From NCBI RefSeq assembly GCF_036365525.1, contig NC_090413.1:28844262-28908261 (forward strand): 64,000 nucleotides of DNA, in the 5' to 3' direction. The notes under the pieces were generated by a model. That model did no database searches, was not told the DNA's origin, and saw only the letters and a list, made by a program, of their open reading frames with translations. Positions 1,657-57,934 of this stretch are shown in pieces; position 1 is the first letter of the stretch, and every line of letters starts with the position of its first letter. Made by a program: the position numbers and the translations under genes. The DNA comes from Heterodontus francisci. Taxonomy: Eukaryota.

Positions 1657-2297
1657 CTGTAAAAATAATAGAGAAAAGTTGTTAGAAACACTCCCAAGCT
1701 TATCTTGCAGCTGCTCAGTGTGAAAATTCATCCTGGAGACTTGATCTGTTGTGCTGTTTTATCATTGATCCATATTACATGCCTGTGCCACACAGACACA
1801 TCCAGCTACTCCACTAAGGCTGGGTAGAGAACTTTAATCACTTTCAATCAATGACCATCTGATACATGATTTTGTAAGTGGAACCGGATTTTTAAAAAAA
1901 TCTGAGATCATACCCTATCTTCACGAAATGTACTCACTCATCACTGAGCACAACTCATTTATCTCATTACATGATTGTTCCTTTGTCAAGATGAGACATA
2001 ATATTGTGTTTACAATCCAAATCCAGTCACTTGTTTCAACACTCGCTTTTAATCAGGGAATATCGAGTGTGACTAACACTTTCTCATGATCTTGGAATAC
2101 CAAGTGTCACTAAGACATCTTAAGCTGCTTCTCTTTGAGTATCTGTGAATATGCAAATATTTGAATAAACTTCCTAACTTGTCACTCAACGGAAGGGATT
2201 TTATTGTTTAAAGTAAACCTGACATGCTGCAATTTTGACTATCATGAACTATCAGAACGCTATCTAATCATAATGCCTCCACAACCAGAATCCTTAC

Positions 2298-2591
2298 CAA
2301 ACACCTCAATGAAGACGCTATCATTCTTTGGTGGAACTGATGGATATTCCTCAAAATCTGCTGTACAGACGACTTCCATCAGACCAGCCACCTGTGGTTT
2401 CCATGTCGTTGTTGTTCGGACAGTATTAGAATTTGGCCTTGTTGTAACTGAATTCAGTTCTTTACCATCCTGAAACCACCTGACTCTCATCTTCTCAGCA
2501 GGATAGACATTTGGGACCTCACATGTTAACGTGGCCTCTTGCTTCATTTCTATGGGCCTCTTGTCAAGGATTCGAGGTGGATCCAGAAAAG
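2298..2591 (-). CDS. Gene A Ig domain 3 exon
   Basis: ttgcag|CT...TTT G|gtaagg, 294 nt; TLTCEVPNVYPAEKMRVRW...VVCTADF, a VCAM-D2/D5-like I2/C2-set domain. Confidence 0.9.
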
Positions 2592-3781
2592 CTGCAACAC
2601 AGACAAGGAATTCACTTCATTTTGATTTGCTGTGCTGTGATTCAGTTGCTATTGGACAGAGTGGAAAACTGACCAGTACTGGTATTCCCCAATACACACA
2701 TCCCAGGAGTCTATCACACTGTTCACTGAGAGAAAACTGGAGCCATCATCAGGAGATCACATACTTTATTTTTTTAATTAATTCTTCCTACTCTTCAGGC
2801 AGCCCTAGTATCTAAATCTGCTACTTTTGTGCCAGCCACTATGAGTGGTACAGTCTGATGCATTCACTGATTAACCTTTATTGTGATCTTTACTTGTATC
2901 TGCTACAACATCCCAGTTGAGGCTCAGACCTCAGTGTGGGTGACTCTGGGTGTAAATCTTTCAAGCTTTTTTGCTGCTCCTGCATGGAGAGATTGACTGA
3001 TCTGCTCCTTGACCATCACCTCTACTGACCACTATGAGGTGTGCAAAGCTGTCACATGAGTTTCCTTCAGACATTCCCGTCACTATTAGGAAGCATCTGG
3101 CTGCCATCTGGCAAAAGCAGGAGAGTGATAATATCAACATGTGGGCCATCCTGGAGATAAACATACTTTGCACCAATTTGTTTGTTGCAGAAGAGTAATC
3201 AAGCACAGGGAAAAGCCATTTGGCCCAGAAAGCTCATTTTACTAATGGCTTATCTCTGCGAGCCTAGTATTCAAGCATTGCCTGAAAGATTATTGAGTAA
3301 AAGATACCTACTATTATCTTCTTATTCGATTAATATTGACTTATCTATAGCATTTAATATTTTATACACCTTCCTGAGAGTGTCCTTTAGCCTTCCTCTT
3401 GCTACACTGCAGAGCTCATCTTCATACCAGGAATCAGGTTAGGGTCCTTGGATGTCTTTTTGGAGTCAAGTTAATAAGATCTTAGGCTGGTAGAAGAGGT
3501 CCTGCAAAATCTTTCTTGACCCATTCAAACTAAGCTTTGCGCACACCCTAGCTGGCTAAAAGATTTGCAGTAATTTACCGCTACACTTTGGGCAATTGAG
3601 AAAACTGCATATTTGAGGTGGGTCCAAGATGAACAATTCTTATCCAACACATTTTGTGGTATGGATAAAACAGGAGCTAATGAGATCATCACTGCATTGC
3701 TTCCCACTGTTTATTCTCTACAAATTATCGATATTTAACCATTCTCAAAAAGAGAACATTTCTTGTTCAAGTGGAACTTAC

Positions 3782-4096
3782 AGTAAGTTTGCAGAGTCAC
3801 AGAGGAGTTTGTGATTGGTTTTGTGGTGTTTGAGCCCAAGTCCACCTCTGCCAAGCAGGTGTACTCCTGTCCATCATCTGACATACTTGCAGTGAAATTG
3901 AAGATGTTCCTCAGTCTTTTATCTTCATCCGGGAAACCTTCTTCTCCTGTGAAATTCCTCTGAACAATCTCACTCCCTCTCAGCCATGTGAGTTTGAGTT
4001 TATTGTTTGGATAGACCCTCGGACCAATACACTCCAGACTATATGTCTTGTTAACTTCCAGCACTTCAGGAGGTGATGTAATGTTTAACTCTCGAT
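3782..4096 (-). CDS. Gene A Ig domain 2 exon
   Basis: ttaacag|AT...TAC T|gtaagt, 315 nt; LECIGPRVYPNNKLKLTWLRG...DDGQEYTCLAEVDL...TLQTY resembles ICAM D2 (LLRG...HGANFSCRTELDL...QLQTF). Confidence 0.92.
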
Positions 4097-4496
4097 CTGT
4101 TAAAGGAGAATCAGTTAACATAATTCACTGAAATAATGTATCTGGGCACCCTCTGCTCCATCACACATGCATCTGAGTGAATATGTGCAACATGACTTTA
4201 TCCCAACCACAAATACCATGTTCAATCTCCCCCATTAGCAATAACTACACAAAGTTGTATTTTCAGGCAAGAAGTTTTCCTAAAGTGGAATACTGAAACA
4301 ATTGGCATCTACATAGAATCTGATCCCCAACTGAACACACCTTGAATTAAAATAAACTGACAAAGCTATATTTGTTCCAAATACTGAACTGAATGCATGC
4401 AAATTATAAGCTGAAGCTTAATTATTGCATTGTTTAAACATTTAAAATAGTCTAACTGTAAATTAACTAGTCATTTGGTAGTACAGAACTTGAGTA

Positions 4497-19847: not shown

Positions 19848-20129
19848 TGTACACAACGACGACCCTTTTGTTCTCATTCAGTTTATTCTCCTCTGCTTGA
19901 CACATCACAGAACACGGCACAGAGATATCCCATGACTCAACACTTGGGAAAAGGTCAGCTATCCATTTACTACCAGATTTTCGGATAGGATTTATCCCCG
20001 ATTTATACTCCACCATAATTAATGGTTCAGAATCTGCACATGTTGTACTGCAGTTTGCTTTCAGAGAGTCTCCAAATTCCACTGCAGGGGGGTTTGTTTC
20101 GATCCGAACCTCAAATCCAACAACATTTG
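19848..20129 (-). CDS. Gene A Ig domain 1 exon (ICAM-type integrin-binding domain)
   Basis: ttggcag|CA...TAC A|gtaagt, 282 nt; FEVRIETNPPAVEFGDSLKANCSTTC...MVEY...CSVMC...VVVY; two CxxxC pairs diagnostic of ICAM/VCAM/MAdCAM D1. Confidence 0.92.
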
Positions 20130-20248
20130 CTGCCAAGAAAACAAATCACAGTAAATACAGAGGTTTAGAATAGATTTGGTGTAGGGCGTGTTCAGTGTAA
20201 CTCCCAGAGGTAACACAAAAACAAGCCTCTTTCAAAGTAGAACATATG

Positions 20249-21695
20249 GACCCGGATTTTGCAGTTGAAATAATCGTGAGGCTATCAGAGCCCAACATTA
20301 TTAAAGAGTAAATCGGATAGCAGTCCACATACGTGCAGTTAAATGCAGAAATCAGAAAGTTACTCTGCTCCTCCAGAAACAGCAGTATCTCACCAAGAGA
20401 TTGGGCATTCAAACACATGACAGTCATGAAGTTGAGGTACTTACTCACTGGATACCCACTAAGTTCTCCAGAAAAATTTAGGACTTATCCATTCCAGTGT
20501 AAGTGAATTTTTATCAGCCTTAATTAAAGAACCACTTGTGCACTGAAAATTAACTTTTACAAGTGTGTAATCTCATTCCTTTATATTTTAATTATTTAAA
20601 ATAATTAAAGCTTTTAAATACATTTTTAAATGTTTTCTTACTCTTTTATCTCCTCTTAATCCAAACTTTCTTTCCCTCTAGTTTGTTTTCTGTACATGAT
20701 TTGGCATCAAATTAAATATTCTAACTTAAACACTCTGATTCAGACTATGGCCGGAATTTTACGCCACTCCGGTGAGTGGGAGGGGGGAGGGGGTGGCGTA
20801 AGATGGAGCAGGGGGCTCTGGGAGACCTCCCTGACCTGCTCCCGCCTCCACCGCCACTTTACACACGGTGACGGCGCCAAAAAATGGCTCACCCGCCCCA
20901 GGCCTATCAAGGCCCTTAAGTGGCCACCTATCAGCCACTTAAAGGCCATCGCCTGCCTCCACGCAGATTTTACTCGTGGCAAGCGAGCGTCCTGGAGCCG
21001 GGAGAAGCTGCCTGACAAAAGCAGGTGGCTTCTCAGCGTCCCGAGGTGGCCCTCATGATCAGGCACCCTGTGCCTGATGAAGGGCCGTTCCTGCTACCCC
21101 AACTATCCCCAAGACCCAACACGCACTCACTTCCCCTCACTTGCCTCGCCGGGGCCCGACCGATTACCTCCGGCGAGGCAACCAAAACTTACCTTCCTTC
21201 CCGGCACCCCAGGCATCTTGTCTTCATGCTTGGCTGCAGTCCCAGCAGTGGCCACCGCTCCCATCGGTGCTGCTAAGACTAAGAGCTGCCAGCCTGCTGG
21301 TTAGCCGGCAGCTCTATTCGGCAGGACTTCCTACCTCAAGCGGGCGGAAGTCCCACCTCACACCAATTGAAGCCTGGGGACCCGCAAAATATGGATCAGA
21401 TCCCCAGGCAAGGCAGAAGCCGGTTCACCACCGACTTTTCAGTTGGTGGCCGGCTCCCATCCGCCTAGGTTAAAATTCCGGCCTGTGTCTCACTGAGGAT
21501 TCCTCAATATGATTGGTTAAGGAGACACACATTTGCTTGCCTTAATCACACAGCCCCCAGGATCTTTGTAGAGGACACTGTGCAGTTTTGGTTATCTGAA
21601 AACGTTAACTCTCAAAGGAAAAGCTGATAGAAAGTCTGTGGGCAAGTGTAAGTATAATGCATGACTAGTTCATCACCGAGAACAAAATCCTGACC
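20249..21695. mobile_element. Old non-autonomous TIR element hosting a younger MITE
   Basis: atg-gacccggattttgcag...caaaatcctgacc-atg; internal homology (acgtgcagttaaat) to 22188-23268. Confidence 0.55.
20749..21483. mobile_element. MITE, longer member of the 423-782 family, opposite orientation
   Basis: TAT-[GGCCGGAATTTTAC...TTAAAATTCCGGCC]-TGT; GC/CpG-rich interior homologous to 423-782. Confidence 0.85.
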
Positions 21696-22187
21696 ATGTC
21701 TGCAGTTTATTTTTTCCCACTGTCCCTCTGCGAGTAGCAATATTGCAATATTGGGAATGATATTTGTAAAGCCTTAAAATATTAAAGCTTTCTCAGAGCT
21801 CATTATTTCACAGTTATTAGAATTCTCTCTCTTTACAGATATCAAATATTTTTAATCAAAAAATTTGATGCTATTTGGATTACATATTTTTCTATTCATT
21901 TATAATAAAATGAAAGTGGAATTACAGCCAAATTATGTGATTCATACTTCCATATTTTACTTATTCCTCCATAAAACTTTTCTCATAATCTTAAAAATTC
22001 TGGGCCCTGAATATCCATGGAGTTCTTCCACCATAACCCTGAGAGAAATGTTGTGAATGATAGTCTGCACCATTTCTCTGGATGACCTGCCAATCTCCTA
22101 CTGGAGTAACCCCATTGCAAATCTCATTCACTGAACTCTTGCACATTTTATACCTTTATTTATGGCCTTAGCCTTTATTATAACATT

Positions 22188-23268
22188 GGCCCAGATTTTG
22201 CAGCAGTAATGATGGTGAAACAGTGTTCACTGTCATTATTCCTCTAAAACTGACAGCAACTTCTGGAGTCCACACGTGCAGTTAAATAAGGAAATCCAAA
22301 ACTTGCTGTCTGATTCTGTGCTTCACCAAATAGTGCACTGTGAAAGTCCCTGCAGCAGAGCATGGCTACCCGACCCGAACCCGATGGGACCTGACAACAT
22401 GTGTCGGGTTCGGGTCGGGTCGCACTTCCCGGTCTGGCCTTCAGGCTCGGGTTGTTTCGGGACAGGTCGTACACACGCTATTACCAATCGGTAAGTGGCT
22501 CCAATATTAATGTACTTTTTGAACTAGAAAGGTTGTTTAGCTACAGTTTTTTAAGCTTGTGCAGAAAAGCAACAAAGTGAAAAACTGAAGGTAGGTTAAC
22601 TGATCGTCGGGTTGGGTCGGGCGTGGGAAAAAATGAAAGGACTCGGGCCAGCTCGGGGTCAGGGTCGGATGTGGTTCTGTTGCGCTCAGGTCAGGTTTCA
22701 TTTGCAGAGCCGGCCTTCACTGCAGATGCCAGTTAGGAATCACTGAACTGATGAAAACTTTCCCTTTTACACCATTAGTCTTGCTGTAAAAAAAAACCCT
22801 TGAAAAAGTTGCACCTTGTTGAATGAGGTGTAACTGGGTTTTTAAACTATGTACTAACCTCAATAGTTTCACTGTACCTGAAAAACTAAGTTGTGGAATG
22901 TCAAATTCCTCCATTATGATATAAAAAAAAAAATCACATTTTTGAATTTTTAAAAGTTCATGATAGTTCAGTCTCTACCTTAATCCCATTTACTTTGCTC
23001 TCTAAAATGTTAAAGTGAAATATTGTGCTTTTTTTTTTTAATTCCTGGTTTGCTGTCTGTGGAATATTTTAGTGAGATTAACTGCATACCCTATCTGATG
23101 ACATCACTGTTGCTAGATACTTGGAAATCCCCTGGACTTGCCTAGATGCAAACTGACATGGGGAAAGGGGAAATTCACATGACAGAGATTGTTAGATTTT
23201 TGTGGACAGCTTTCTTCGAGGTCAATGGTGAACGCCGTCACTTGGCCACTAACTGCAAAATCCAAGTC
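22188..23268. mobile_element. Old TIR element with nested hAT-like MITE (~22357-22710)
   Basis: ggcccagattttgcag...ctgcaaaatccaagtc inverted termini; internal cccgacccgaacccga repeats. Confidence 0.6.
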
Positions 23269-23464
23269 ATGACATCTAACCTTCTCATAGCCGCTATGAA
23301 ATCACCAACTTCTTTGTTATCAGTAGTTTCTACTGGAGTGTTAAATACTGAAGGACAATTCTGTGCATAAAAACTAGGTATTCTCCTCATAACAGAAAAT
23401 GACTTGCTCAATTACAACCAGGTACCAGGAACTTGGATGACAAAACTGTCAAACACCCTCCATT

Positions 23465-24970
23465 CATAAGATCATAAGAACTAGGAGCAGGAGTAGGCCA
23501 TCCGGCCCCTCGAGCCTGCTCCGCCATTCAATAAGATCATGGCTGATCTTTTCGTGGACTCAGATCCACTTACCCGCGCTCCCACAGTATCCCTTAATTC
23601 CTTTATTGTTCAAAAAGATATCTACCTTAGCTTTAAAGACGTTTACTGAAGAAGCGTCAACTACTTCACTGGGCAAGGAATTCCATAGATTAACAACCCT
23701 CTGGGTGAAGAAGTTCCTTCTTAATTCAGTCCTAAATCTGCTCCCTCTAATCTTGAGGCTATGCCCTCTGTCCTAGCTTCACCTGCCAGTGGAAACATCC
23801 TCTCTACTTGTATCTTATCTATTCCCTTCATAATTTTACATGTTTCTATAAGATCCCCCCTCATTCTTCTGAACTCCAATGAATATAATCCCAATCTACT
23901 CAGTCTCTCCTCATAAGCCAACCCCCTCAACTCCGGAATCAACCTAGTGAACCTCCTCTGCACCCTCTCCAGTGCCAGTATATCCTTTCTCAAGTGAGGA
24001 GACCAAAACTGCACACAGTACTCCAGGTGCGGCCTCACCAGTACCTTATACAGCTGCAACATAACCTCTCTGCTTTTAAACTCAATCCCTTTAGCAATGA
24101 AGGACAAAATTCCATTTGCCTTCTGAATGACTTGCTGTACCTGCAGACCAACCTTCTGCGATTCATGCACAAGGACACCTAGGTCCCTCTGCATAGCAGC
24201 ATGCTGCAACTTTTTACCATTCAAGTAATAATCCTTTTTCCTGTTACTCCTACCGAAATGAATTACTTCACATTTACTAACATTGTATTCCATCTGCTAG
24301 ACCTTTGCCCACTCACTCAATGTATCTATGTTTCTCTGCAAAGTTTCAGAGTCATCTGCACACTTTGCTCTGCCACTCATCTTAGTGTCATCTGCAAACT
24401 TTGACACCCTACACGTGGTCCCCAACTCCAAATCATCTATATAAATTGTAAATAATTGTGGTCCCAACACCGATCCCTGAGGCACACCACTAGTGACTGA
24501 TTGCCAACCAGAATAGCACTCATTTATCCCACTCTCTGCTTCCTGTTAGTCAACCAATCCTCTATCCATGCTAATACTTTACCCCTGACGCCATGCATCC
24601 TTATCTTATGCAGCAGCCTCTTGTGCAGCACCTTGTCGAAGGCCTTTTGGAAATCTAGGTACACCACATCCACTGAGTCCCCATTGTCCACCTTGCCCGT
24701 AATGTCATCATAGACTTCCAAAAGATTGTCAAGCATAACCTGCCCTTCATGAACCCATGCTGCGTCTGCCCAACGGGACAATTTCTATCGAGATGCCCTG
24801 CTATTTCTTCCTTGATAATAGACTCAAGCATCTTCCCCACTACAGAGGTTAAGCTAACTGGTCTATAATTCCCCATCTTTTGTCTACCTCCCTTTTTAAA
24901 CAGTGGCGTCACATCTGCTGTTTTCCAATCTGCTGGGACTACCCCAGAGTCCAGCGAATTTTGGAAAATT
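23465..24970 (-). mobile_element. CR1 LINE RT/3' fragment
   Basis: [26 protein letters not shown]; tail cataagatcataagaactaggagcagg. Confidence 0.92.
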
Positions 24971-25896
24971 CAACTTGCTTTTACTGGAGGGTGACTTTCA
25001 GCCCCCAAATCCGACACCGTCTGTTGGTGCCCCCAACTGAAGCAAAGCGCCCAGCCCCAAACCCACTCAAAGCAAGTTATAAAGAGTTTCCCATTCTGCG
25101 TCCATCACAGTTTCCCCTTTATTGAAGAGCTGCAGCCTGCTGGGTTTTATGCTCCCCGGCCAACTGTGAGAGAGCTAAACTTTCAGGATAAACTTTTCAT
25201 GCCGTTAATTTACTGAAATTAGGGGATGAAACCTTGTTGCAAAAGCGACAGGGCGCGGGTTATCGTGTACGTGGGGGCGGAGGAATAAGATCTAATGCTG
25301 TCTGCATACTGCACGTTTGAACGATACCAACACTAACTGCCTATGGTGCAAACACCAATTCGAAAAGCTCTCCGTTTCAGCTGACTGAAGAAAGGCGGAG
25401 TACAGCGTGAATATTTCTCGATGGGAATAAAGTGAGCAGAAGGGCAGGTCAGTGTAATCATCCTAAACTCTTACTTCACGGCGTTGTGGCTTCCTTTGGT
25501 CGGATAAAGTGAACAGGGGCTTTCTGTCAGTGGGAAAGAATATGTAACCCATCTTACATTTATTATTACAAAGCACAATAAACATTGGAGAGAATGTGGA
25601 CTCATTTAGCATAAGGTAAAATAGGCGTGCGTCGGAGCAACATTTAAATATAAAATTAATCCTAAAGTGAAATAGATCCTCTCTTCGCTCCTTTAAGAAC
25701 AAACCAGAAACACGCACAATATTCTAGTTTCTGATGTTAATGAATAGCTAATTAAATGGCACAAAAGTCAATAACCAATTACAAAACAAACCCACAAGAT
25801 AAAACTTCCAGATATAAACATCTAACTACACATTCCAAATACAGTACGAATTTACTCAATAAATACTATCTATATATTTAAATAGTTTTTACCTAC

Positions 25897-25963
25897 TTGT
25901 GATACTGAAAGTCAGGGTGAAGAAGTAAATATATTCATCGGGTGAAGTGATCCTGAAGCCCAT
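25897..25963 (-). CDS. Gene A probable leader (signal peptide) exon
   Basis: gagtcATGG (good Kozak context) MGFRITSPDEYIYFFTLTFSIT A|gtaggt; phase 1 joins the D1 exon giving ...SITTNVVG/FEV; unique sequence just downstream of a GAS cluster; hydrophobic core only moderate. Confidence 0.6.
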
Positions 25964-26066
25964 GACTCTGAGTTTGGGATTCTGCAGAATGCTGACTGTG
26001 TAGGGGTTGGAATCTGTGCTCGCTCTGAGCAATTCGGCTCAATGTTAATGAGAGTGACCTGTGTCC

Positions 26067-26077
26067 TTTCCCGGAAA
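26067..26077 (-). promoter_or_regulatory. Palindromic GAS/STAT element TTTCCGGGAAA
   Basis: 104 bp upstream of the putative ATG; further TTCN3GAA motifs at 26094-26102 and 26188-26196. Confidence 0.7.
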
Positions 26078-26285
26078 CTATTTGGGAACTGAGTTCAGAG
26101 AATCCAGAACTAACAATTCCATCGTCTCACATTAACATTTGATACATTGCCAGACTACTTAAAACGAATGTAGGACATTTCAATATTTTCAGGGAACACA
26201 GCAAAAATGTTCAAAACATAAAATCTATATGTTAAATGACGAATGCTGAGAAGAAAGTAAAAGGTGTATTACGTTTTGAGGAGAG

Positions 26286-27550
26286 ATGATGGCGTAGTGG
26301 TAATATCACTGAACTAGTAATCCAGAGGCCCAGGCTAATGTCCTGGGGAGAGGGGTTCAAATCCCACTGTGGCAGCTTTTTAAAATTTGTTCAAGGGATG
26401 TGGGCATCACTGGCTAGGACAGCAGTTATTGCCCATCTCTAATTGCCCTTGAGAAGGTGGTGGTGAGCTGCCTTCTTGAACCGCTGCAGTCCATGTGGGA
26501 TAGGTACACCCACAGTGCTGTTAGGAAGGGAGTTCCAGGATTTTAACCCAGCGACAGTGAAGAAATGGTGATATAGTTCCAAGTCAGGATGGTGCGTGTC
26601 TTGGGCGGCGCAGTGGTTAGCACCGCAGCCTCACAGCTCCAGCGACCCGGATTAAGTTCTGGGTACTGCCTGTGCGGAGTTTGCAAGTTCTCCCTGTGAC
26701 TGTGTGGGTTTCCTCCCGGTGCTCCGGTTTCCTCCCACATGTTAAAGACTTGCAGGTTAATAGGTAAATTGGCCGTTGTAAAAATTGCCCCTAGTGTAGG
26801 TAGGTGGTAGAAGAATTGAGGGAAAGTGGGGATGTGAGAGGGAAAAAATGGGATTAATGTAGGATTAGTATAAATGGGTGGTTGATGGTCGGTGTGGACT
26901 CATTGGCCGAAGGGCCTGTTTCAGTGCTGTATCTCTCTATGACACTCTGTGACTTGGAGGGGAACTTGTAGCTGGTGGTGTTCCCATGCATTTGCTGCCC
27001 TTGTCCTTCCTGGGTTTGGAAGGTGCTGTCTGAGGAGCTTTGGTGCATTGCTGCAGTGCATCTTGTAGATGGTACACACTGCTGCCACTATGCGTCGGTG
27101 ATGGAGGGAGTGAATGTTTGTAGATGGGGTGCCATTCAAGCGGGCTGCTTTGTCCTGGGTGGTGTCAAGCTTCTTGAGTGATGGAGCTGCACCAATCCAG
27201 GCAAGTGGAGAGTATTCCATCACACTCCTGACTTGTGCCTTGTAGATGGTGGACAGGCTTTGGGGAGTCAGGAAGTGAGTTACTCGCCTCAGGATTCCCA
27301 GCCTCTGACCTGCTCTTGTAGCCATGGTATTTATGTGGCTGGTCCGGTTCAGTCATAAAAACTCATCTGGGTCAATGATGCCCTTTAGGGAAGGAAATTC
27401 ACTATCCTACATGTGACTCCAGATTCACAGTAATGTCGTTGACTCTTAACTGCCCTCTGAAATGGCCTGGCAAGCCATTCAGTTGTCAAGGGCAATTAGG
27501 GATGGGCAACAAATGCCAGCGATGCCCACATCCCATGAAAGGGGAAAAAA
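26286..27550 (+). mobile_element. Triple nest: tRNA-derived SINE split by a family-B LINE fragment (-, ~26378-27355), itself split by an HE1-like SINE
   Basis: SINE head with A/B boxes (tggcgtagtggt...ggttcaaatccc) at 26286-26375; body and LINE-B-type tail resume at 27356-27550; other copies at ~42435-42820 (-) and ~55000-55180 (+). Confidence 0.75.
26603..26947 (+). mobile_element. HE1-like (V-SINE) tRNA-derived SINE
   Basis: gggcggcgcagtggttagcaccgcagcctcacagctccagcgacccgg head; CR1-type tail ggccgaagggcctgtttcagtgctgtatctct. Confidence 0.85.
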
Positions 27551-39389: not shown

Positions 39390-39577
39390 TCACTGGAATT
39401 CTTTTAAAGGGATTTTATCCTGATGTTCAGATCCATTGGAAAGAGGTGGATTGTTCTGTACTTCATAGTTTCCACTTCTAAGGGCAGTCCATTTCTTGTA
39501 CAAGCCAAAGATTATCAAAGCTATGATTATTCCAATTGTTACAAATAAGATCACCCAAAGGCTGTTCCATGTTACAT
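39390..39577 (-). CDS. Gene B transmembrane + cytoplasmic exon
   Basis: ttcacag|AT phase 1; DVTWNSLWVILFVTIGIIIALIIFGLY-KKWTALRSGNYEVQNNPPLSNGSEHQDKIPLKEFQ*. Confidence 0.9.
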
Positions 39578-39819
39578 CTGTGAAAACATTAATAAAAATA
39601 CAAATCATTTATTTCAGGGCAATATATTTATTATGAAACTCCTGATCATTTCCAAAATTCATAGTTTATTTGCAAGAAAATTTTTCATGGAATCTCTAGT
39701 TTGCAATATTCAACTATTTGCTGTATTTCAAGTTGTATTCTTCACCTCCTTTTATTCTCACCAAACATGGACCATTCCTGATTACCTACACCTACACTCC
39801 ATGTCCCTCTAATACCTTT

Positions 39820-42800
39820 AATTAATTTCTTCCTTTTTTCTATTCTCCTCCACTGTCTCTGATTTGTGATGCTGCTTGTCTGACATCCAGTATTGGAGGA
39901 GTAGAAATTTCCTGCAACTAAGTATTGAGAAGATCAAAGCCTTTGTCTTCAGTCCTCACCACAAATACTGCTCCCTACCCACCAACTCCGTCCCTCTTAC
40001 AGACCACAGTCTGAGACTGAATTAAACTGTTTTCAACCTTGGCAAACTATATGACTCTGGACCAAGCTTCCGATCCCATATTCTTTCCAACACCAAGATC
40101 ACCTACTTCCACCTCCGAAACATTGTCTGTCTCCGCCCCTGCCACAGCCCATCTGCTCCTACAACCCTCATCCATACCTATGTTACCTAGACTCGAATAT
40201 TCCAATGCTGCCCTTGTTGGCCTCCAAAATTGTCCCCTCCATAAACTTGAGTTCATCCAAACTGCTGTCCGTATCCTAACTCACATCAATTCCCAATCAC
40301 CCATCATACCCATGCTCGTTGACCTACATTGGCTCTCATCCAGCGACACCTCAACTTTAAAAAAAAATTCTCCACCATGTTTTCAGTTCCCTCCATGGCC
40401 TCGTCTCTTCCTATTTCTGTAACTTTCTCCATCCCTACAACCCTATAAGATCTCTGTGCTCCTCCAATTCTGGTCTCTTACGTATCCCCGATTTTAATCA
40501 TTCCATCACTGGCAGCATGCCTTCCGCTGCTTAGGCCTTACCTCTCTCAACAACAATAACAGCAACTTATATTTATATTTTTTTTATTTGTCCTTGGGAT
40601 GTGGGTGTTGCTGGCTAGAACAGCATTTATTGCCCATTCCTAACTGCCCTTGAGAAGGTGGTGGTGAGCTGCCTTCTTGAACTGCTGCAGACCATGTGGG
40701 GTAGGTATACCCACAGTGCTGTTAGGAATGCAGTTCCAGGATTTTGACGCAGTGACAGTGAAGGAACGGTGATATAGTTCCAAGTCAGGATGGTGTGTGG
40801 CTTGGAGGGAAACTTGCAGGTGGTGATGTTCCCATGCATCTGTTGCCCTTGTCCTCTTAGGTGGTGCAGGTTGCGGGTTTGGAAGGTACTGTCTAAGGAG
40901 TCTTGGTGAGTTGCTGCAGTGCATCTTGTAGATGGCACACACTGTTGCCACTGTGCGTCGGTGGTGGAGGGAGTGAATGTGGATGGGGTGCCAATCAAGC
41001 AGGCTGCTTTGTCCTGGATGGTGTTGAGCTGCTTGAGTGTTGGTGGAGCTGCATCCATCTAGGCAAGTGGAGAGTATCCATCACATTCCTGACTTGTGCC
41101 TTGTGGACAGGCTTTGGGGAGTCAGGAGGTGAGTTACTCGCCTCAGGATTTCCAGCATCTGACCTACTCTTGTAGCCACGGTATTTATATGGCTACTCCA
41201 GTTCAGTTTCTGGTCAATGGTAACCCCCAGGATGTGGGATTCAACAATCGTAATGCCATTGATTATCAAGGGGAGATGGTTAGATTCTCTCTTGTTGGAG
41301 ATGGTCATTGCCTGGCACTTGTGTGACGCGAATGTTACTTGCCACTTATCAGCCCAAGCCTGGATACTGTCCAGGTCTTGCTGCATTTCTACACGGACTG
41401 CTTCTGTATCTAAGGAGTTGTGAATGGTGCTGAACATTGTGTATTGTGCTGAACATCAGTGAGCATCCCCACTTCTGCCCTTATGATTGAAGGAAGGTCA
41501 TTGATGAAGCAGCTGAAGATAGTTGGGCCTAGGACACTACCCTGAGGAACTCCAGCAGTGATGTCTTGGAGCTGAGCTGATTGACCTCCAAAAACCACAG
41601 CCATCTTCCTTTGCGCTAGGTACGACTACCCAGCAGAGAGTTTCCCCCCGATTCCCATTGACTCTAGCATCTTTGGCATTATAAAATGTCCCAATGTGCT
41701 TCACAGGAGCGTTATACAGCAAAATTAGACACATCTCAGGGTCAAATATGAGACCAAGATTACAAACAGTCTAGTTCAGTCTCAGAAAGTTGCCAGAGAA
41801 TGGAATAGCAGTCTTATGACTTAAGGGCAGATGTCCAAATGCTTGGTCAAAAAGATAGGTTAAAAGGAGCATCTTAGAGAAAAGACAGGTGGAAAGGTTG
41901 TGGGAGTGAATTCCAGAGCTTAGGGCCTAGGCAGCAATCGTGCAGCAATTAAAATTGGGGATGCTCGAGGCCAGAATTAGAGGAGCATAAATATCTGAGG
42001 TTTGTGGGGGTTACAGAGGTAGGGAGGGGCAAGGCCATGGAAGGATTTGAAAACAAGGATGAGAATTTTGAAATCGAGGTATTGCTTAACCAGGAGCCAA
42101 TGTAGGTCAGCAAGCACAGGGGTGATGAGCAAACAAGACTTGGTGTGAGTAAGGAAATGGCTAGCAGAGTTTTGGATGAGCTGAACTTTACTCAAGCCAG
42201 GAATGTGTTGGAATAGTCAAGTCTAAAGGTAACAAAGGCATGGATGAGGCTTTCAGCAGCAGATTAGCTGAGGCAGGGCAGAGCCAGGCGATGTTGTGGA
42301 AGTACAAAGAACAAAGAAAATTACAGCACAGGAACAGGCCCTTCGCCCCTCCAAGCCTGCGTCGATCCAGATCCTCTATCTAAACATGTCGCCTATTTTC
42401 TAAGGGTCTGTAGAAATAGTTGCAGTGACGGCACACATATGTGGTTGGAGAATGAGTGGCTTGCTGGGCCATTTCAGAGGTTATGTTAAGAGTCAACCAC
42501 ATTGCTGTGGATCTGGAGTCACATGTAGGCCAGACCAGGTAAGGATGGCAGACTCCCTTCCCAAAAAGGACATTAGTGAACAAGATGGGTTTTTATGACA
42601 ATCAATGATAGTTTCATAGCTCTAATACTGAAACTGGCTTTCAATTCCAGAACTTGTTAATTAATTGCATCTATTAACTAATTGAATTTAATTCAAATGC
42701 ATTAATTAACTAATTGAATTTAAATTCTACCAACTGCCATGGTGGGATTTGAACCCATTTCCCCAGGATATTAGCTTAGACTGCAAGATTATTGGTTTAG

Positions 42801-43100
42801 TGACATTGCCACTACAACACAATCTACCCCAGTCTAGTTTAGTCTCAGGCAGTTGCCAGAGAAAGGAATGGCAGTGGCTCGGGAACAAGTTTGTAGCGGG
42901 GACTGAAGACAATGACTTTGGTCTTCCCAATATTTCCAATAATTTCTTCTCCTTTAAGATGTTCCTTAAAACCTACTTCATTGACCAAGCTTTTGGTCAC
43001 CTGTCTGAATATCTCCTTATGAGGCTCAGAATTAAATTATCTTTCATAAACACTCCTGGGATGCTGATTACATTAAAAGTGCGATACAAATGCAAATTCT
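39820..43100. mobile_element. Cluster of L2 fragments (~39820-40550 +, ~41660-42300 -), family-B LINE (40580-41665 -) and SINE
   Basis: RLEYSNAALVGL...LVDLHWL and LADLHWLLVKQYLDFKIL are L2 C-terminal motifs; [19 protein letters not shown]. Confidence 0.8.
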
Positions 43101-43795
43101 TGTTGATAGAAGGTCATCCGTCATCGAACAACTTCCTGGTTATCTTTTAAGCAGGTTCCAGGATTTCACTGATACTTCCTCTGTTTGTTTGTCCCTACAT
43201 TTTGCTTCCAATTCTATGAAAACTCTTGTTAATCTTCCATTTTTCTGCCCAAAACATTCACCATCCATTCTCTGCACAGATTTGACTGACCTGCTATGTT
43301 GCAGCCACTCCTGGTTTTGTTTTACACTGTGATTGTCCCCCCTTACTATTAGAATTGAAGCCCAGCCATGTGATGCAGCTCACTGAGCTGCCAACACCCT
43401 GCACCATGACCGGCAGTGTGTGGATTCACAGCTGCAACTCCCCTGCTGCGGAGTTATTGCTCAGGCAGTCTGGGCAAACACAGAGCAGGAATAAAGTGCT
43501 TCTACACACAAAGAGAAACAAGTGGAAGGGAGTATCACTCTGGGCCATTCTTACTAATGTCCTAGAGGCCAGTTACAGAGCAGCATTGTGAGAGGCAGGC
43601 AGTAGTTTATCCATTTGTCCCATTACCAGCAAGTGTGGAGTAGAACAGGAGGAGTCTTAAAGAAAATAAATGAATAACTGAGTTAAGTAAACCGAAATGG
43701 CACTCGGGATTTATTTGGGATAACAGAAATGCTGCTTCAATCCACAAAGGATTAATTATTTATTCTTTGCATTCTGACCAATATTACAAACTGAC

Positions 43796-44077
43796 CTTTG
43801 ATCCTGATGTCCACTTCCTTCTCATCAGTTCCATATTTATTGGTAACTGTACATTTATAAATGCCTTGATGTTCTGATGTTGCGTGGGAAATATGGAGGA
43901 CTCCAAGAGGACCATCCTGAATGTTCCTGCCATTACTGGGGGCTTCCCACTTTAATGTCGGCGTGGGGTTTCCACTGGAATTGCAGATAATTGTAACCTC
44001 ATCACCTTCACTGAGGGTTACTGGAACCCCTGACACGGTTTGGTTATTTACTGATGTGGTTGTATTTCGAGGTTTAT
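43796..44077 (-). CDS. Gene B Ig domain 6 exon (I-set)
   Basis: ttccag|AT...AAA G|gtcagt, 282 nt; EGDEVTIICNSSGNPTPTLKW...HQGIYKCTVTNKYG...KEVDIRIK. Confidence 0.92.
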
Positions 44078-44465
44078 CTGGAAAAGAAAAAGGAAAAGAT
44101 GAAAAGAGGCAGGAAAGGCACATCACAGGATCACTGACACAGCACCACATCAGTGCTTGGATTAGCTGCATTCCCAAACTTAGTCACATATTGTGCTCTC
44201 ATCCATCTTCAACAGCCAGTTCAGAACATCTGAATCCCTACAGTTGGATTGAAGTCCAGTGAGTGTTACTGCCTGGAATTTACTCCCACTCATCTGTCAT
44301 TTTATAAATCCAAAGTGAAATGCAGTTTCTTTGTGTAAATATAAACTCAACATAACAGCCACTCACTGGATCAGCTTGCATAAGGTTATCACACAAACAC
44401 ACTGTTCACAGCGCTCAGAACAAAGGAACATTCAAAGAGTAAACTTCCTGTAATCCATTACTCAC

Positions 44466-44711
44466 ACAGAATGACTGAATTTACAGAGGAGTTTCTGGAT
44501 CCATACTCATTGGTAACTGTGCACGTGTACAGACCACTATGCCACATTTGAACTGATGGGATGTGGAGTATCTCTCTGCTGAGTATCTTCCCATCTTTGG
44601 TCCAGAACACCTGGGGAGCTGGGTTCCCTGCACCATGACATGTTAAATTCTGTGATTTCCCTTCAATCCAGTCTTCTTGTGCTTTAAAGATCTGTGCTTC
44701 CATTGGAGCAT
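44466..44711 (-). CDS. Gene B Ig domain 5 exon
   Basis: ttacag|AT...CTG T|gtgagt, 246 nt; WIEGKSQNLTCHGAGNPAPQVFWTKDG...SGLYTCTVTNEYG, like ICAM-1 D5. Confidence 0.92.
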
Positions 44712-46234
44712 CTGTAAATTTCATTAGAATACAAAATTAAAACTTGAAATTGAATAACAAAGCTCAAATACTTTTCAGATCTTTCTGGTGATTTTATTTT
44801 GGTGCTCTCCAGATGTCAGTGCTCGGAATAAAACTGACTTCTCTGTGAAAACTCAGTGTCAGCATCAAACACTCCCAGGTCAAATAAAACGCAGGATAAA
44901 GACAGAGAAATTCTCCCTGTACTCTGCGGACAAAAGCAAAAATTCTGAGTGCCACTTTTGAGAAATCTCCAAGTGATTTCTGCTTTACTCTTTCCAGTTT
45001 CTGTATAGCTGATTGAGCACCAATCTGAGAATGGAGAAGGGTGGTCTTCGGTCAAAGGGTTCTAAGAGGAGTTTTACAGCTCTCCGGTTATATGGAATTA
45101 TTGAACTATTGTTGAAATTTTACAATGCAGTATTAGTAATTAATTGATTAATAAAGTGTTTGACATTCCTATGCTATTTTAACAAAGGTGTTAACCTGTT
45201 GAAATAAACATGATGCAGCTGATTTCTAAATAAACAATCCAATGAACACTACAAATAACAAACATATCAATACAATATATTTATCTGTTATATTTTTAAA
45301 TCACTGAGTCAAAGCATTCCATTTCAAATTACCTTCAAAACTCATATGTCAGCCTCTGGTAATGGGAAATCCCATCGGAAGACTGTCAACAGTTACCTAC
45401 TGTACCAGTCATGCCTGTATTTGTCACTTTGATTGATATTTATAACGCTGAATGACCTGTCATGCAACGTTAGTGCGAGCCCAGTCGTGAAACTATTTTT
45501 GTGTTTGAAGTCAGCTGTGTGTAAGCCTGTGGCTCCATTACAGATTCATTGGGTGGCAATGTAGAATAAATATATTAGAAAGCCTTCAGATAGCAGCCTT
45601 TTTAAACCTCCCTGCACTAAGGCCTTTCCCCCAAAGTTGCCATTGGATTCCCCCCCTGAACGAAATGGTGCCCCCTCAGATATTGCATCAGGTTCCATAT
45701 CCTCGATATTCCTGCACAGAAAATGGGAACCAAGAATCCACAAGGCATAGGTTCCTTACACTGCATGTTTCCCCCAAACAGAACACTACACTCCAGGTTG
45801 AACTCAGGGATGCTCATTCCCATGAAGCTCTCGCTGCTCCCTGTCTCCTGGCTGTGGATTCCTCATTGCAACGTGAGTTTAAATTCCCTGTGATTCTCCA
45901 TTTCTCTGCTGCATTCTCATTGACAAAGCCCTTAACCCATTTTACCCACCTGCAATTACACCCTCTCGCCTCTGTCTCTTAGATCTATTCAAAAGTCAAA
46001 TTACACGAGAATGTTAGAGACAAACATCAGCAGTAACAACAGGAGGGTGGGCAAGATGAACCTCTAATTTGTTTCCAGTCTGTTACTTTCTCTGCTTCTA
46101 TGTTTTTCTATTTTACCATCACAATATCGTATCAGACAAAATAGGATCATTTCTCCCCAGAGTATTTCTCTGTGAGTGCTGGACAATTACACCAGTCTTT
46201 CTGCAGTATTCATAAACTAGATGTTAGCTATTCA

Positions 46235-46754
46235 GTCTTCTGTGTTGTTGGAGGTCAATCATCTGAGCTCCAGGACATCACTGCAGGAGTTCCTCAGGGT
46301 GGTGTCCTAGGCCTAACCATCTTCAGCTGTTTCATCAATGATCTCCTTCAATCAGAACGTCAGAGGTGGGGATGTTCGCTGATGATTGCACAATCTTCAG
46401 CACCATTCGTGACTCCTCAGATACTGAAGCATCTGTGTAGAAATGCAGCAAGACCTGGACAATATCCAGGCTTGGACTGATAAGTGGCAAGTAACATTCG
46501 CACTACACAAGTGCCAGGCAATGATCATTTCCAACAAGAGAGAATCTAACCATCTCCCCTTGACATTCAGTGGCTTTACCATCGCTGAATCCCCCACTAT
46601 CAACATCCTAAGGTCTACCATTGACCAGAAACTGAACTGGAGTAGCCATATAAATAGCGTGGCTACAAGAGCAGGTCAGAGGCTAGGAATCCTGCAGCGA
46701 GTAACTCACCTCCTGACTCCCCAAAGCCTGTCCACCATCTACAAGGCACAAGAG
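46235..46754 (+). mobile_element. Internal family-B LINE fragment with 12-bp TSD
   Basis: GTTAGCTATTCA at 46223-46234 and 46755-46766; absent from the gene A intron (~905-920). Confidence 0.8.
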
Positions 46755-47235
46755 GTTAGCTATTCATTCTTCACAACTGTTGCTCTGTGTATCATTATCT
46801 CCATTGAAAATGCTATTCTAGCATTCTTTATCTCACATTAAATAGATGCTATTAGTAGCCCACACGTTACATCAGCCCAGTACGGCTCAGCTTCCAATTG
46901 CTCCTCGCTTGTTCCTGTGGAAAAATTGGTCTTCAATTCGTATCTCACCCAATGGTCTGGTCAGGACATGTACCTTGCTATATGGCGGACTCAGGCCACA
47001 TAATCACATGATTGCACTCTGTGGTCAGTAATGGACAGTGTCTCCACACAGCCCCGTCCTGTGTTCTGCATTCTGATCAAGCTTGGAAATAAAAAGAGCC
47101 ACTGAAAAGCAGGATAAATGTGAGACCAATTCTGTTTGTTCAGGACTAAGAGAAGGGTCAGTATGAGTTTCATTGGTCTCCATTTGAAATTAAAAAACCT
47201 CACTAACTATTTGTAACCAAAATGATGCAACTTAC

Positions 47236-47517
47236 ACAGGACGTGGAGGGTGTCAACCTGTTTTTTAACACGGCTTGTTGACGGATCTTGAAGTTTCAGT
47301 TCAGCCTCGCAGATGTACTGCTGTCCATCCAGCTTTGCTTCTGCATCCACAGTATAGTAGATACTGAGCCCTGTACTGCTTGATTCATTCACTAATATGT
47401 CATTTCTGTTCTTCAGACTGAGTTGAAGTTCCCCTGAGACATTAAACACACTGCAGGTAATATTAACTGGGTTTCCTTCAGGGCTGATTGGTACTTGGAT
47501 TTCAAGGGCAGGGAAAA
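47236..47517 (-). CDS. Gene B Ig domain 4 exon
   Basis: 282 nt, same splice sites as 1375-1656; 3 aa differences. Confidence 0.9.
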
Positions 47518-47713
47518 CTGTAAAAATAATAGAGAAAAGTTGTTAGAAACACTCCCAAGCTTATCTTGCAGCTGCTCAGTGTGAAAATTCATCCTGGAGA
47601 CTTGATCTGTTGTGCTGCTTTATCATTGATCCATATTACATGCCTGTGCCACACAGACACATCCAGCCACTCCACTGACTAAGGGTAAGTAGGGAACTTT
47701 AATCACTTTCTGT

Positions 47714-48769
47714 TGTTACAATCAGGTGAGGAGAGGTCGAAAGGCTCCCCTCTTGTCCCTCTCCTTGTTTGACTGCAACTGTGTATATTCCTTTTTAAAC
47801 TGTGGATGTGTTTCCCAATTCAGTGAGTATTTACCCTTTATGTGCTATGATCATAAAAGAACCAATCCGACAGGTTTTCTTGAGTTTAAACAAGAAAGAG
47901 GTTAGTTTATTTTACTTAAGAATCTAAACCCGATCAAAGTGAAAATAATAAATTACACTCCAACTTTCACTCATTCACACACACACACCCAGTAGAATCT
48001 CACACACACAAATAGATTATAGAGTGATGAAGAAGAGTTTTGTTGGATTAGAATCCAGAACAAATAAAAGTAATATACAGTCTGTGGGGTCTGGTAATTC
48101 AGTTATCTTCTGGATGAATTCACGGTTCTGAAATCTCTGGCTGGTAGAAGTGCACTTGCAGCTGGTTCAGGGTTTTCTTGGAGACAGCGGTGTAGGTGGC
48201 CTTCTCCCCCTGGATTCTCTCTCTCTAGCAATGGTAGACCTGGATGTTCGACAGATGCAGACAGGTTTTGAAACTTGTAATTTTACCTGGAGAAAAAGAG
48301 AGAGAGATACAAACCCACTAAGGTCTTGCGCTGGTTTGCTCTCAAAGCTTGTCTGCTCTGTGTAACAAACAATTCCGTGTAACAAAAAAATTCACGTTGA
48401 TATTCCTTTTTTTCTTTAATGAGGTCTGAAGTCTGAGAATCCCAAATCTCTCTCAGGTTGTATTGTTTCAATGTTTACCCCCTGGAGATACATCACCACT
48501 AGTGAATGCTCCAAGGTGGCTTTGGATGTCCTGCGAACAAGGATTATACTGGATAATTTGTTCAACTGGATGGGAGTTTTTTAGACATGCGTCTCCACTT
48601 CAATGTCCTGGAATGTGAGGTATTTCAATCCAAATTGTGGTGGCCAACTTATCTGCCAGTTTTTTGAAACGTTAATTGTAGGATTTTTGCTTTCCTTTTT
48701 CAAAGTTTAATGTAGGTTTCCAAACGATAAATTAAAAATCTTCATTCAGCATAGCATGTTTTCTTGACA
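47714..48769 (-). mobile_element. Solo LTR
   Basis: TGttacaatcaggtgagg...gttttcttgaCA; absent at the paralogous gene A site (~1845); homologous to 48947-50162. Confidence 0.8.
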
Positions 48770-48946
48770 CAATCAATGACCATCAGGTACGTGATATTGT
48801 CAGTGGAAAAGGATTAAAAAATCTGAGATCATACTCTATCCTCACCAGATATATTCACTCCTCATCACTGAACACAACTCATTTATCGCATTCCATGGTT
48901 ATTTCTTTGTCAAGATGAGACATATTATTGTGTTTACAGTCCAAAC

Positions 48947-50162
48947 TGTTATGATCAGGTGAGGAGGGGTCGCAAGGGTCCCTTCTTGTCCCTCTCCTTG
49001 TTTGACCGCAACAGCGTTTATTTCTTTTTAAACAGTGGATGTGCTTAGCACTTCAGTGAGTGCTTAACCTTTTACCTTTGTTGTGATCAGAAAAGACAGA
49101 GGCGCAAGGGGAGAGCCAACTGTGCAACAGCCCCAACAAACAAATTTCTCTGCAGCACCTGTGGAAGAGCCTGTCACTCCAGAATTGGCCTTTATAGCCA
49201 CTCCAGGCGCTGCTTCACAAACCACTGACCACCTCCAGGCGCGTATCCATTGTCTCTCGAGATAAGGAGGCCCAAAAGAAAAGAAAGAAAGATCAGAAAA
49301 GAACCAATTGGACAGATTTTCTTGAGTTTAAACAAGAGATGACTTTATTGTATTTAACCAAAAATCCTGATTTAGATAAAAAAATAAACTACGCTGCACT
49401 TTCACTCACACGCACAGGGGAATCACGCACACAAGTAGATTACAGCATGGAGAGGAATAGTTTGGTTTAGAGTCCAGAACAAATAAAATTCATATACAGT
49501 CTGTGATGTCTGTTAATTTAGTTGTCTTCCAGCTGAATCTGGAATCTAGATGTTCTTGGAGACAGTGGAGCAGGTGGTCTTCTTCCTGGGGGTCTTTGTC
49601 TTGGATCTTTTCCAGCCAGGAGGCAAGCTTCGAATGACCAAGGTCACGTCGAGAGAGAGAAGGAGGGAGAGAGGCACCCCCTATGGACTCTGCACACATC
49701 AAAATCTCAGGAGCTTGTCCTTTTGCAAAAGAGTGCTGGTTTTTTACAGCAGGGGAGGCAGTCACATGATTGTGCAGTGTCCTCATTTGCAATTTAATTA
49801 GATTTAAGTCTAGCAATTTTCAATCTCTCTGGTCTCATTGTTTCAATGTTTATCCCCTGGAGGTACGTCTCCACTCATGAATGCTTCAAGATGGCTTTGA
49901 AAGTCCTGCTAATGAGGGTAATACTGGATAACCTACTTGACTATTCAAGCCATTGTCCTGGATGGGAGTCTTGTTAGACATGCGCCTCCAATTCGATGTC
50001 CTGGACTGTGAGGTATTTCAGTGCAAATTTTAGTGGCCAACTTGGCTGCCAATTTTTTAAAAGTTCAATGTCGGATCCCAGTTTTTCTTTTTAAAAGTTC
50101 AATGTCGGTTTCCAACCGATTAATTACAAAGTCCTCATTCAACACAGCATGTTTTCTTGACA
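48947..50162 (-). mobile_element. Solo LTR (same family) containing an RTE insertion
   Basis: TGttatgatcaggtgagg...gttttcttgaCA; absent at the gene A site (~2020). Confidence 0.8.
49097..49290 (+). mobile_element. 5'-truncated RTE-clade LINE 3' end
   Basis: KFLCSTCGRACHSRIGLYSHSRRC* C-terminal zinc finger, (GAAA)n tail, perfect TSD GATCAGAAAAGA. Confidence 0.75.
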
Positions 50163-50478
50163 ACACTATTCAGTCACTTGTTTCATACACCTTTATGATC
50201 CTGGAATATCAAGTGTCAGTAATATTCCCTGATAATCAGGGAATATCGAGTGCCTCTAACACTTTCTCATGATCTTGGAATACCAAGTGTCACTAAGACA
50301 TCTTAAGCTGCTTCTCTTTGAGTATCTGTGAATATGCAAATATTTCAAAACTTCCTAACTTGTCACTCAACGGAAGGGATTTTATTGTTTAAAGTAAACC
50401 TGACATGCTGCAATTTTGACTATCATGAACTATCAGAATGCTATCAAATCATAATGCCTCCACAACCAGAATCCTTAC

Positions 50479-57930: not shown

Positions 57931-57934
57931 TCAC

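What the first reader, a model, noticed from the sequence alone, without database searches (positions are those of the whole stretch)
25980..26196. Proximal promoter carries the human ICAM1-type palindromic IFN-gamma/STAT element within a GAS cluster
Seen: TTTCCGGGAAA on the gene strand at 26067-26077, 104 bp upstream of the putative ATG, plus TTCAGAGAA (26094-26102), TTCAGGGAA (26188-26196) and a TTCN4GAA site (25980-25989). Known: human ICAM1 is induced by IFN-gamma/IL-6 through the same 11-mer in its proximal promoter at a comparable distance from the start. Inference: cytokine-inducible ICAM expression via STAT may date to the jawed-vertebrate ancestor, or arose convergently; the motif also independently supports the leader exon call.
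Basis: partly seen in the sequence, partly recalled or inferred. Interest (0 to 1): 0.7.

Follow-up and report, generated by a model that had tools for sequence, protein, structure and literature searches.

The report
STAT switch in shark ICAM promoter
A shark cell-adhesion (ICAM) gene has a perfect STAT-type DNA site just upstream of its spliced first exon, so it is likely switched on by interferon-gamma or IL-6-type signals as human ICAM1 is, but the site is the generic best STAT sequence and does not by itself show shared ancestry with the human one.

Summary
All four motifs lie where stated. The leader exon is real: contigs of 4 of 4 RNA-type runs (one sample) splice 25897 to 20129, and five sister genes have the same exon. 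The 11-mer is unlikely by chance (4 of 20,000 shuffles of the 300 bp upstream; once per 1.8 Mb genome-wide). It is likely a working STAT1/STAT3 site; this was not tested. Corrections: the letters are the generic top-affinity STAT1 site (PMC5737217), not an ICAM1 signature, so identity to human cannot show descent; the TTCN4GAA site lies inside the 5' UTR; the other two sites are weak; splicing and paralogs, not the motif, prove the exon. New: the gene sits in a seven-D1 ICAM array near CDC37, a JAK and DNMT1. Gene B lacks the site but has an NF-kB element matching human ICAM1's; gene C's promoter aligns to A's and carries a one-base-broken site plus kB-like sites. STAT and NF-kB inputs may be split among copies. 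Conservation of the site in three other species' runs was inconclusive. The scan had not noted this element elsewhere.

The parts
26067..26077 (-). High-affinity GAS (STAT) palindrome TTTCCGGGAAA, -114 to -104 from the ATG; holds an ETS-type core CCGGAA on the + strand
   Evidence: sequence; only high-affinity GAS within 1.5 kb either side of any of six ICAM leaders; STAT1 reference consensus in PMC5737217; function inferred
26094..26102 (-). Weaker N3 GAS TTCTCTGAA, 17 bp from the main 9-mer; overlaps the stretch that aligns with the kB-like site of gene C (and tentatively B)
   Evidence: two spacer changes from the consensus; function uncertain
26188..26196 (-). Weaker N3 GAS TTCCCTGAA, -233
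   Evidence: outside the part alignable with gene C; function uncertain
25980..25989 (.). TTCN4GAA (STAT6-type spacing) inside the 5' UTR
   Evidence: covered by spliced contigs of X5 and X6; one base left out in the one contig of organism B, depth 2.5
25897..26066 (-). First exon of ICAM gene A: 5' UTR of up to at least 103 nt with no upstream ATG, and 67 coding nt (signal peptide MGFRITSPDEYIYFFTLTFSIT, phase-1 donor)
   Evidence: spliced contigs in 4 of 4 runs, 5' extents 26066, 26016, 25978 and about 25934; X5 loose end is library adapter, no upstream exon seen; Kozak GAGTCATGG
26008..26016 (-). Conserved CAGATTCCA motif, candidate main start region (would put the GAS at about -62 to -52)
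   Evidence: shared with gene C and with the loose ends of organisms C and D; X6 contig ends at 26016; start site inferred, contigs cannot show it
20130..25896 (-). Intron 1, 5,767 nt, GT-AG
   Evidence: joint 20129/25897, ends CT..AC on + strand
19848..20129 (-). Exon 2: ICAM N-terminal Ig domain (D1) of gene A
   Evidence: Pfam ICAM_N E 2.2e-7, over cut-off; best PDB matches ICAM-3 and ICAM-2; contigs
1346..4124 (-). Further Ig exons of gene A (open frames 3735-4124, 2260-2616, 1346-1681); last exons lie before the window start
26277..27550 (.). Repeat block that bounds the single-copy promoter (about 210-260 bp between the transcript ends and the repeats)
   Evidence: multi-copy blastn cover from 26277 in the 296 kb held
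39396..63550 (-). Upstream sister gene B (D1 to transmembrane exon); its leader and kB-bearing promoter lie 2.6-2.9 kb beyond the window end

Best explanation
The palindrome at 26067-26077 is a perfect STAT-consensus (GAS) site immediately upstream of the spliced first exon of a shark ICAM gene, and it likely lets STAT1 or STAT3 dimers switch this copy on after interferon-gamma or IL-6-family signalling. Shown: the motif, its rarity, the exon and splice, the ICAM identity, the array and its neighbours, a STAT1-type gene in the genome, and a shark IRF1 upstream site identical in 17 letters to the human IRF1 GAS probe. Inferred: binding and induction; a main start near 26015 with some starts reaching 26066; a minor role for the two weaker N3 sites; little or none for the N4 site. 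Origin (inferred): the site or its precursor is older than the split of the A and C promoters, since C has a one-base-broken version at the aligned place; whether it descends from the same site as human ICAM1 cannot be read from the letters, because both are the affinity optimum.
For: Rarity: 4 of 20,000 local shuffles, 3,389 copies in 6.01 Gb. Position: abuts the furthest 5' contig end and lies within a single-copy stretch bounded by repeats from 26277. It is the zero-energy reference site for STAT1 in PMC5737217. A-C upstream sequences align above chance (score 41, 0 of 1,000 shuffles) and the site falls opposite TGTCCCGGAAG in 4 of 4 alignments. Shark STAT code looks intact: STAT1_TAZ2bind hit on C7, IRF1 upstream TGATTTCCCCGAAATGA equal to the IRF1 probe in PMC1550284. 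Human ICAM1 uses STAT1/STAT3 at a proximal element (PMC10215618, PMC4074809). The array shares a contig with DNMT1, CDC37 and a JAK gene.
Against: No binding or induction data. Present in 1 of 6 leader-bearing copies (1 of 4 distinct promoters). Some transcripts reach 26066, next to the site, so for those the site would sit on the start. No kB site near gene A (one weak match at -573 inside repeats), unlike human ICAM1. An ETS core CCGGAA, not the full palindrome, is what all four promoter types share. The IRF8 control showed no high-affinity GAS in 30 kb upstream, so 1 of 2 controls worked. The near-GAS in C would arise in 6.4% of shuffles taken alone. Odds are post hoc.
Confidence: 0.65

Rival explanations
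1. Deep descent (compatible with the best explanation, stronger on origin): this site and the human ICAM1 element come from one GAS in the ICAM promoter of the jawed-vertebrate ancestor, together with an upstream NF-kB site.
For: Same genomic neighbourhood as the human ICAM cluster at 19p13.2 (cluster location from PMC10215618, neighbour order recalled); similar distance to the ATG; B carries TGGAAATTCC, 10 of the 11 letters of the human ICAM1 kB site in PMC3320982 (0.18% of shuffles); IRF1 shows that a GAS can persist from shark to human.
Against: The 11-mer and the kB 10-mer are both generic optima; kB-to-GAS spacing is about 30-50 bp in the shark copies against about 110 bp in human (-187 and -76); shark and mammalian ICAMs expanded separately, with no one-to-one ortholog of ICAM1 (D1 is closest to ICAM-3 and ICAM-2 in PDB); no human or intermediate promoter could be aligned here.
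Confidence: 0.3
2. The conserved function is an ETS site (CCGGAA) for endothelial or leukocyte ETS factors; in gene A its flanks happen to complete a STAT palindrome.
For: In A, B, B', C and C' the only CCGGAA within 1.5 kb either side of the ATG is the proximal one (-113 to -178); G has one at -118 among four. Human ICAM1 has functional ETS sites nearby (PMC3320982).
Against: In A the core is on the opposite strand to B and C, a flip that is harmless only if the site was already palindromic (inference); five further letters match the STAT optimum; two more N3 sites lie close in a window depleted of them.
Confidence: 0.15
3. Neutral coincidence: the palindrome has no regulatory role.
For: 3,389 copies exist genome-wide; absent from 5 of 6 leader-bearing copies; found post hoc.
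Against: About 1 in 9,000 per 200 bp by the genome rate; right position; aligned near-match in C.
Confidence: 0.1
4. The four sites act together as a cooperative (tetramer) STAT module that also takes IL-4/13-STAT6 input, as the word 'cluster' implies.
For: Three N3 sites in 129 bp (11 of 20,000 local shuffles); STAT1 forms tetramers on tandem GAS (PMC3507856); a STAT6-like DNA-binding exon is in the genome (label by my reading).
Against: Spacer of 17 bp against 10 bp in the tandem probe of PMC3507856; both side sites deviate from the consensus; the N4 site is in the UTR and is broken in organism B's contig.
Confidence: 0.15

Closest known systems
Human ICAM1 palindromic IFN-gamma/IL-6 response element (-76 to -66; STAT1, STAT3)
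   Same: 11-bp STAT palindrome in the proximal promoter of an ICAM gene at a similar distance from the ATG; letters identical by recall (not seen in a paper here)
   Different: No kB partner in gene A's own promoter; gene A is one copy of a shark-specific array, not a one-to-one ICAM1 ortholog; no functional data
GAS consensus TTCC(C/G)GGAA (STAT1 optimum, PMC5737217; same letters as STAT5 and STAT3 probes in PMC10550406, PMC10076289)
   Same: Exact match including the outer T/A
   Different: Nothing in sequence; this is why the match to human carries little information on descent
IRF1 promoter GAS (PMC1550284 probe; shark copy at G000:C12:83736610-83736626)
   Same: A GAS near the 5' end of an immune gene in both shark and human
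   Different: IRF1 keeps a non-optimal core and flanks over 17 letters, a far better sign of descent than the ICAM 11-mer
Human ICAM1 NF-kB site TTGGAAATTCC (-187 to -178; PMC3320982, PMC10215618)
   Same: 10 of 11 letters in the promoters of shark genes B and B'
   Different: Lies in other copies than the GAS; only 30-50 bp upstream of their CCGGAA site

Membership tests
GAS (STAT-binding) element | TTC-N3-GAA palindrome, best with CCG/CGG spacer | tested here: met
   PMC5737217
GAS (STAT-binding) element | Lies in the regulatory region of a transcribed gene | tested here: met
   abuts the furthest 5' contig end of a spliced exon; exact start site not shown
GAS (STAT-binding) element | Binds a phosphorylated STAT dimer and confers cytokine induction | not testable with these tools
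   needs EMSA, ChIP or reporter
GAS (STAT-binding) element | Conserved at the orthologous place in related species | tested here: inconclusive
   0 of 3 other species' runs gave a piece over 26029-26265 at 80% likeness; the tool shows only 30 loose letters; one-mismatch version in paralog C
Homolog of the human ICAM1 element | Gene orthologous to the human ICAM1/3/4/5 cluster | tested here: inconclusive
   ICAM_N and ICAM1_3_5_D2 domains and DNMT1, CDC37, JAK neighbours fit co-orthology; MRPL4 not found; the JAK exon scores higher to JAK1 than TYK2; no tree with mammalian ICAMs built
Homolog of the human ICAM1 element | Alignable flanks or an unbroken chain of intermediate species | not testable with these tools
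   no vertebrate promoter collection is on hand
Homolog of the human ICAM1 element | kB site upstream in the same promoter | tested here: not met
   no kB match in gene A's single-copy promoter; kB sites in B and C instead
ICAM family gene (gene A) | Signal peptide exon, ICAM_N D1, further Ig domains, transmembrane exon | tested here: met
STAT6 N4 element (25980-25989) | TTC-N4-GAA, conserved and functional | tested here: inconclusive
   pattern met; one base left out in one low-depth contig of organism B; function untested

The most novel reading that the evidence does not exclude
The ancestral jawed-vertebrate ICAM promoter was already a kB-plus-GAS module like human ICAM1's, and the shark array has divided it: copy A kept STAT input and lost kB, copies B and C kept kB and let the GAS decay to an ETS core, while all copies share 92-100% identical inner Ig domains but differ in D1, leader and tail. 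Sharks would then choose among integrin-binding D1 variants by cytokine (interferon versus TNF/IL-1).
Probability: 0.25. Interest if true: 0.6.

Novelty: new member of a known kind. Interest (0 to 1): 0.38.

Why it matters
ICAM induction by cytokines is how vertebrates recruit leukocytes to inflamed tissue; I found no paper on ICAM promoters of cartilaginous fishes. A working GAS here would place STAT control of ICAM in sharks and gives a short, bounded promoter for a direct test. The apparent split of STAT and NF-kB sites among array copies would be a clear case of regulatory subfunctionalisation. A consensus GAS in an immune promoter is otherwise expected, which limits the surprise.

Tried and rejected
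Cross-species test by laying three other species' runs (X7, X19, X14) on 25100-26265: leader and 5' UTR pieces found in 3 of 3, no piece over the GAS in any; no verdict. No holder on record as RNA was listed; the RNA label of X5, X6, X8, X9 is the tool's guess, backed by the GT-AG joint. An upstream non-coding exon was considered for the 23 unaligned letters of X5 and rejected: they read as a Nextera-type adapter (adapter recognised from memory); the 24 letters of X6 were not shown. IFN-gamma family search gave no hit and nothing rang in the control, so no verdict. Ribosomal_L4 search found one locus on C13 only, not MRPL4 near the array. IRF8 control: no high-affinity GAS in 30 kb. Homology of B's promoter to A or C is not significant alone (137 and 660 of 1,000 shuffles; 1 of 3 MAFFT modes puts its CCGGAA in register), so I did not infer an ancestral letter sequence or claim which copy is ancestral. 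A CATTAACA at about -35 to -28 of the candidate start was considered as TATA-like and left aside (3 mismatches). Three original papers were not held. No supplements were read; they might print the human element.

Full report
1. Observation. All four motifs are at the stated coordinates. On the minus strand the main element reads TTTCCGGGAAA at -114 to -104 from the ATG at 25963. In 20,000 dinucleotide shuffles of the 300 bp upstream of that ATG the exact 11-mer appeared in 4, any TTCCnGGAA in 0.5%, and three or more TTCnnnGAA in 11. The whole window has 12 TTCnnnGAA against 22.8 +/- 4.8 expected, three of them here; a cluster of three within 130 bp arose in 1 of 300 window shuffles, within 250 bp in 14 of 300. 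The genome holds 3,389 copies of the 11-mer in 6.01 Gb, about one per 1.8 Mb, against 2,214 of the reversed control. These odds are post hoc.

2. The gene. The window holds two minus-strand ICAM genes. The D1 exons match Pfam ICAM_N over cut-off (2 of 10 frames scanned) and two later exons ICAM1_3_5_D2; D1 of gene A matches ICAM-3 and ICAM-2 best in PDB. The leader exon is confirmed apart from the motif: contigs of 4 of 4 RNA-type runs, all from one sample and study, join 25897 to 20129 with GT-AG ends; the donor is phase 1 and fits the D1 acceptor; homologous leaders with the same donor precede five other D1 exons of the array; catshark and other shark proteins begin with related peptides. 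The spliced contigs reach 26066, 26016, 25978 and about 25934. The 23 loose letters at 26066 are library adapter, not an upstream exon. Contigs cannot show start sites, but two things follow: the N4 site at 25980-25989 is inside the 5' UTR, and some transcripts begin next to, or upstream of, the 11-mer. A motif CAGATTCCA at 26008-26016 is shared with gene C and with organisms C and D and coincides with the X6 end; if it is the main start (inferred), the GAS lies at about -62 to -52, near the human -76 to -66 (PMC4074809, table passage). Repeats begin at 26277, so the single-copy promoter is short.

3. The array. Seven D1 exons lie on C43 between 28.78 and 29.02 Mb; six have leaders, of four promoter types: A, B/B', C/C', G. 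Inner exons are 92-100% identical among most copies, while D1, leaders and transmembrane exons differ. A's D1 stands with catshark and smooth-hound D1s outside a group of B, C, sevengill and a second catshark D1 (support 87/96, not starred; 9 rows), so the A type is probably old among sharks. DNMT1 (27.83 Mb), CDC37 (28.24 Mb) and a JAK-family gene (28.33 Mb) share the contig, as they neighbour the human ICAM cluster at 19p13.2 (cluster: PMC10215618; neighbours recalled). The JAK exon scored higher to JAK1 than to TYK2 and MRPL4 was not found. The array is best read as co-orthologous to the human cluster, not as an ICAM1 ortholog.

4. Sister promoters. Only A has a high-affinity GAS within 1.5 kb either side of the ATG (1 of 6). 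A and C upstream sequences are homologous (local score 41 against 23.6 +/- 3.5; 0 of 1,000 shuffles), and A's site falls opposite TGTCCCGGAAG of C in 4 of 4 alignments: a GAS with the first T changed, the base whose methyl group STAT1 holds in a pocket (PMC5737217), leaving an ETS-type CCGGAAG. Taken alone such a near-match arises in 6.4% of shuffles. B and B' carry TGGAAATTCC at -214 and -205, the only two copies in 296 kb, 0.18% of shuffles, matching 10 of 11 letters of the human ICAM1 kB site (PMC3320982, passages); C has kB-like sites at -188 and -270 (any such site: 14% of shuffles). A has none in its single-copy promoter; the aligned stretch reads GGATTCTCT and overlaps the second GAS. 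B's homology to A or C is not significant alone (137 and 660 of 1,000 shuffles), so B's place in this picture is tentative. One CCGGAA hexamer lies at -113 to -178 in all four promoter types and is the only one in 3 kb for five of six copies, which feeds the ETS rival.

5. Controls. A STAT1-type tail is in the genome. Shark IRF1 has TGATTTCCCCGAAATGA about 1.6 kb upstream of its coding start at a CpG-richer stretch, equal to the IRF1 probe printed in PMC1550284 (passage). IRF8 showed no strong GAS in 30 kb: 1 of 2 controls. The IFN-gamma family search gave no verdict. Laying runs of three other species showed the leader and UTR in 3 of 3 but no piece over the GAS, which neither shows nor excludes an 11-bp site; organism B's one contig (depth 2.5) lacks one base of the N4 site.

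6. How it likely works. Shown: motif, position, exon, gene family, array, STAT1-type gene, IRF1 control. Inferred: cytokine-activated STAT1 or STAT3 dimers bind the palindrome and raise transcription of copy A, as at human ICAM1 (PMC10215618, passages); side sites add little, since they deviate from the optimum and most single changes cost over 1 kT (PMC5737217, parts 2 and 3 of 5 read). Confidence 0.65. Rivals: ETS site with lucky flanks 0.15; cooperative four-site module 0.15; neutral 0.10. Deep descent from the same site as human ICAM1, which is compatible with function, 0.3.

7. Comparison with what is known. The 11-mer is the zero-energy reference in the STAT1 affinity table (PMC5737217) and is used as a STAT5 decoy and probe (PMC10550406, passages) and in a GAS reporter (PMC10076289, passage); STAT preference for such palindromes reaches back to flies (PMC2556238, abstract). 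Two promoters under selection for strong STAT binding would converge on these letters, so identity is weak evidence of descent; the IRF1 case, with a non-optimal core and conserved flanks, shows what strong evidence looks like. That the human ICAM1 element has these exact letters is recalled: searches listed no paper that I saw printing them for ICAM1, and three originals were not held. Searches for shark ICAM work (listings only) and passages of a trout ICAM-1 paper (PMC8417878) showed nothing on shark ICAM promoters; subscription papers and supplements were not seen. Earlier notes of the scan cover a transmembrane exon of this array (e1-9965616) but not this element.

8. Verdict. A real, well-placed, probably functional GAS: a new member of a known kind, interest 0.38. 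The boldest reading not excluded, an ancestral kB-plus-GAS module divided among array copies with different D1 domains, has probability 0.25 and would merit 0.6.

Noticed in passing
G000:C43:28911117-28911126 (L002) and 28958280-28958289 (L007): Promoters of genes B and B' carry TGGAAATTCC, matching the human ICAM1 NF-kB site; ISRE-like GAAA repeats lie in their first intron (+227, +266, +544).
   Followed up: partly
G000:C12:83736610-83736626 (L064): Shark IRF1 upstream GAS identical over 17 letters to the human IRF1 probe: a better case of a STAT site conserved from shark to human than the ICAM element.
   Followed up: partly
G000:C43:28756000-29052000: ICAM array is mosaic: inner Ig exons 92-100% identical among most copies, D1, leader and transmembrane exons diverged; B and C share D1 while A and C share promoter and tail, suggesting gene conversion or unequal crossing-over.
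   Followed up: partly
G000:C43:29002539-29029594: The D1 at 29002826 has no leader exon of its own; an NCBI model (P0002) runs from the G leader through three domains into this D1, giving a gene with two ICAM_N domains, as in the catshark model P0001.
   Followed up: no
window 25001-25750: CpG observed/expected 0.55-0.93 against 0.29 for the window, in single-copy sequence at the start of intron 1; organism D keeps a 64-bp piece at 25531-25594, a possible intronic enhancer.
   Followed up: no
window 25327-25447: An X5 contig (depth 9.5) matches 121 bp of intron 1 and runs on into 469 letters that lie elsewhere: a possible cryptic exon or separate transcript.
   Followed up: no
window 1-64000: TTCnnnGAA is about half as frequent as in shuffles (12 against 22.8); cause not examined.
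   Followed up: no
window 26087-26097: A small perfect inverted repeat GAACT-C-AGTTC (gene strand) lies between the two proximal GAS sites.
   Followed up: no
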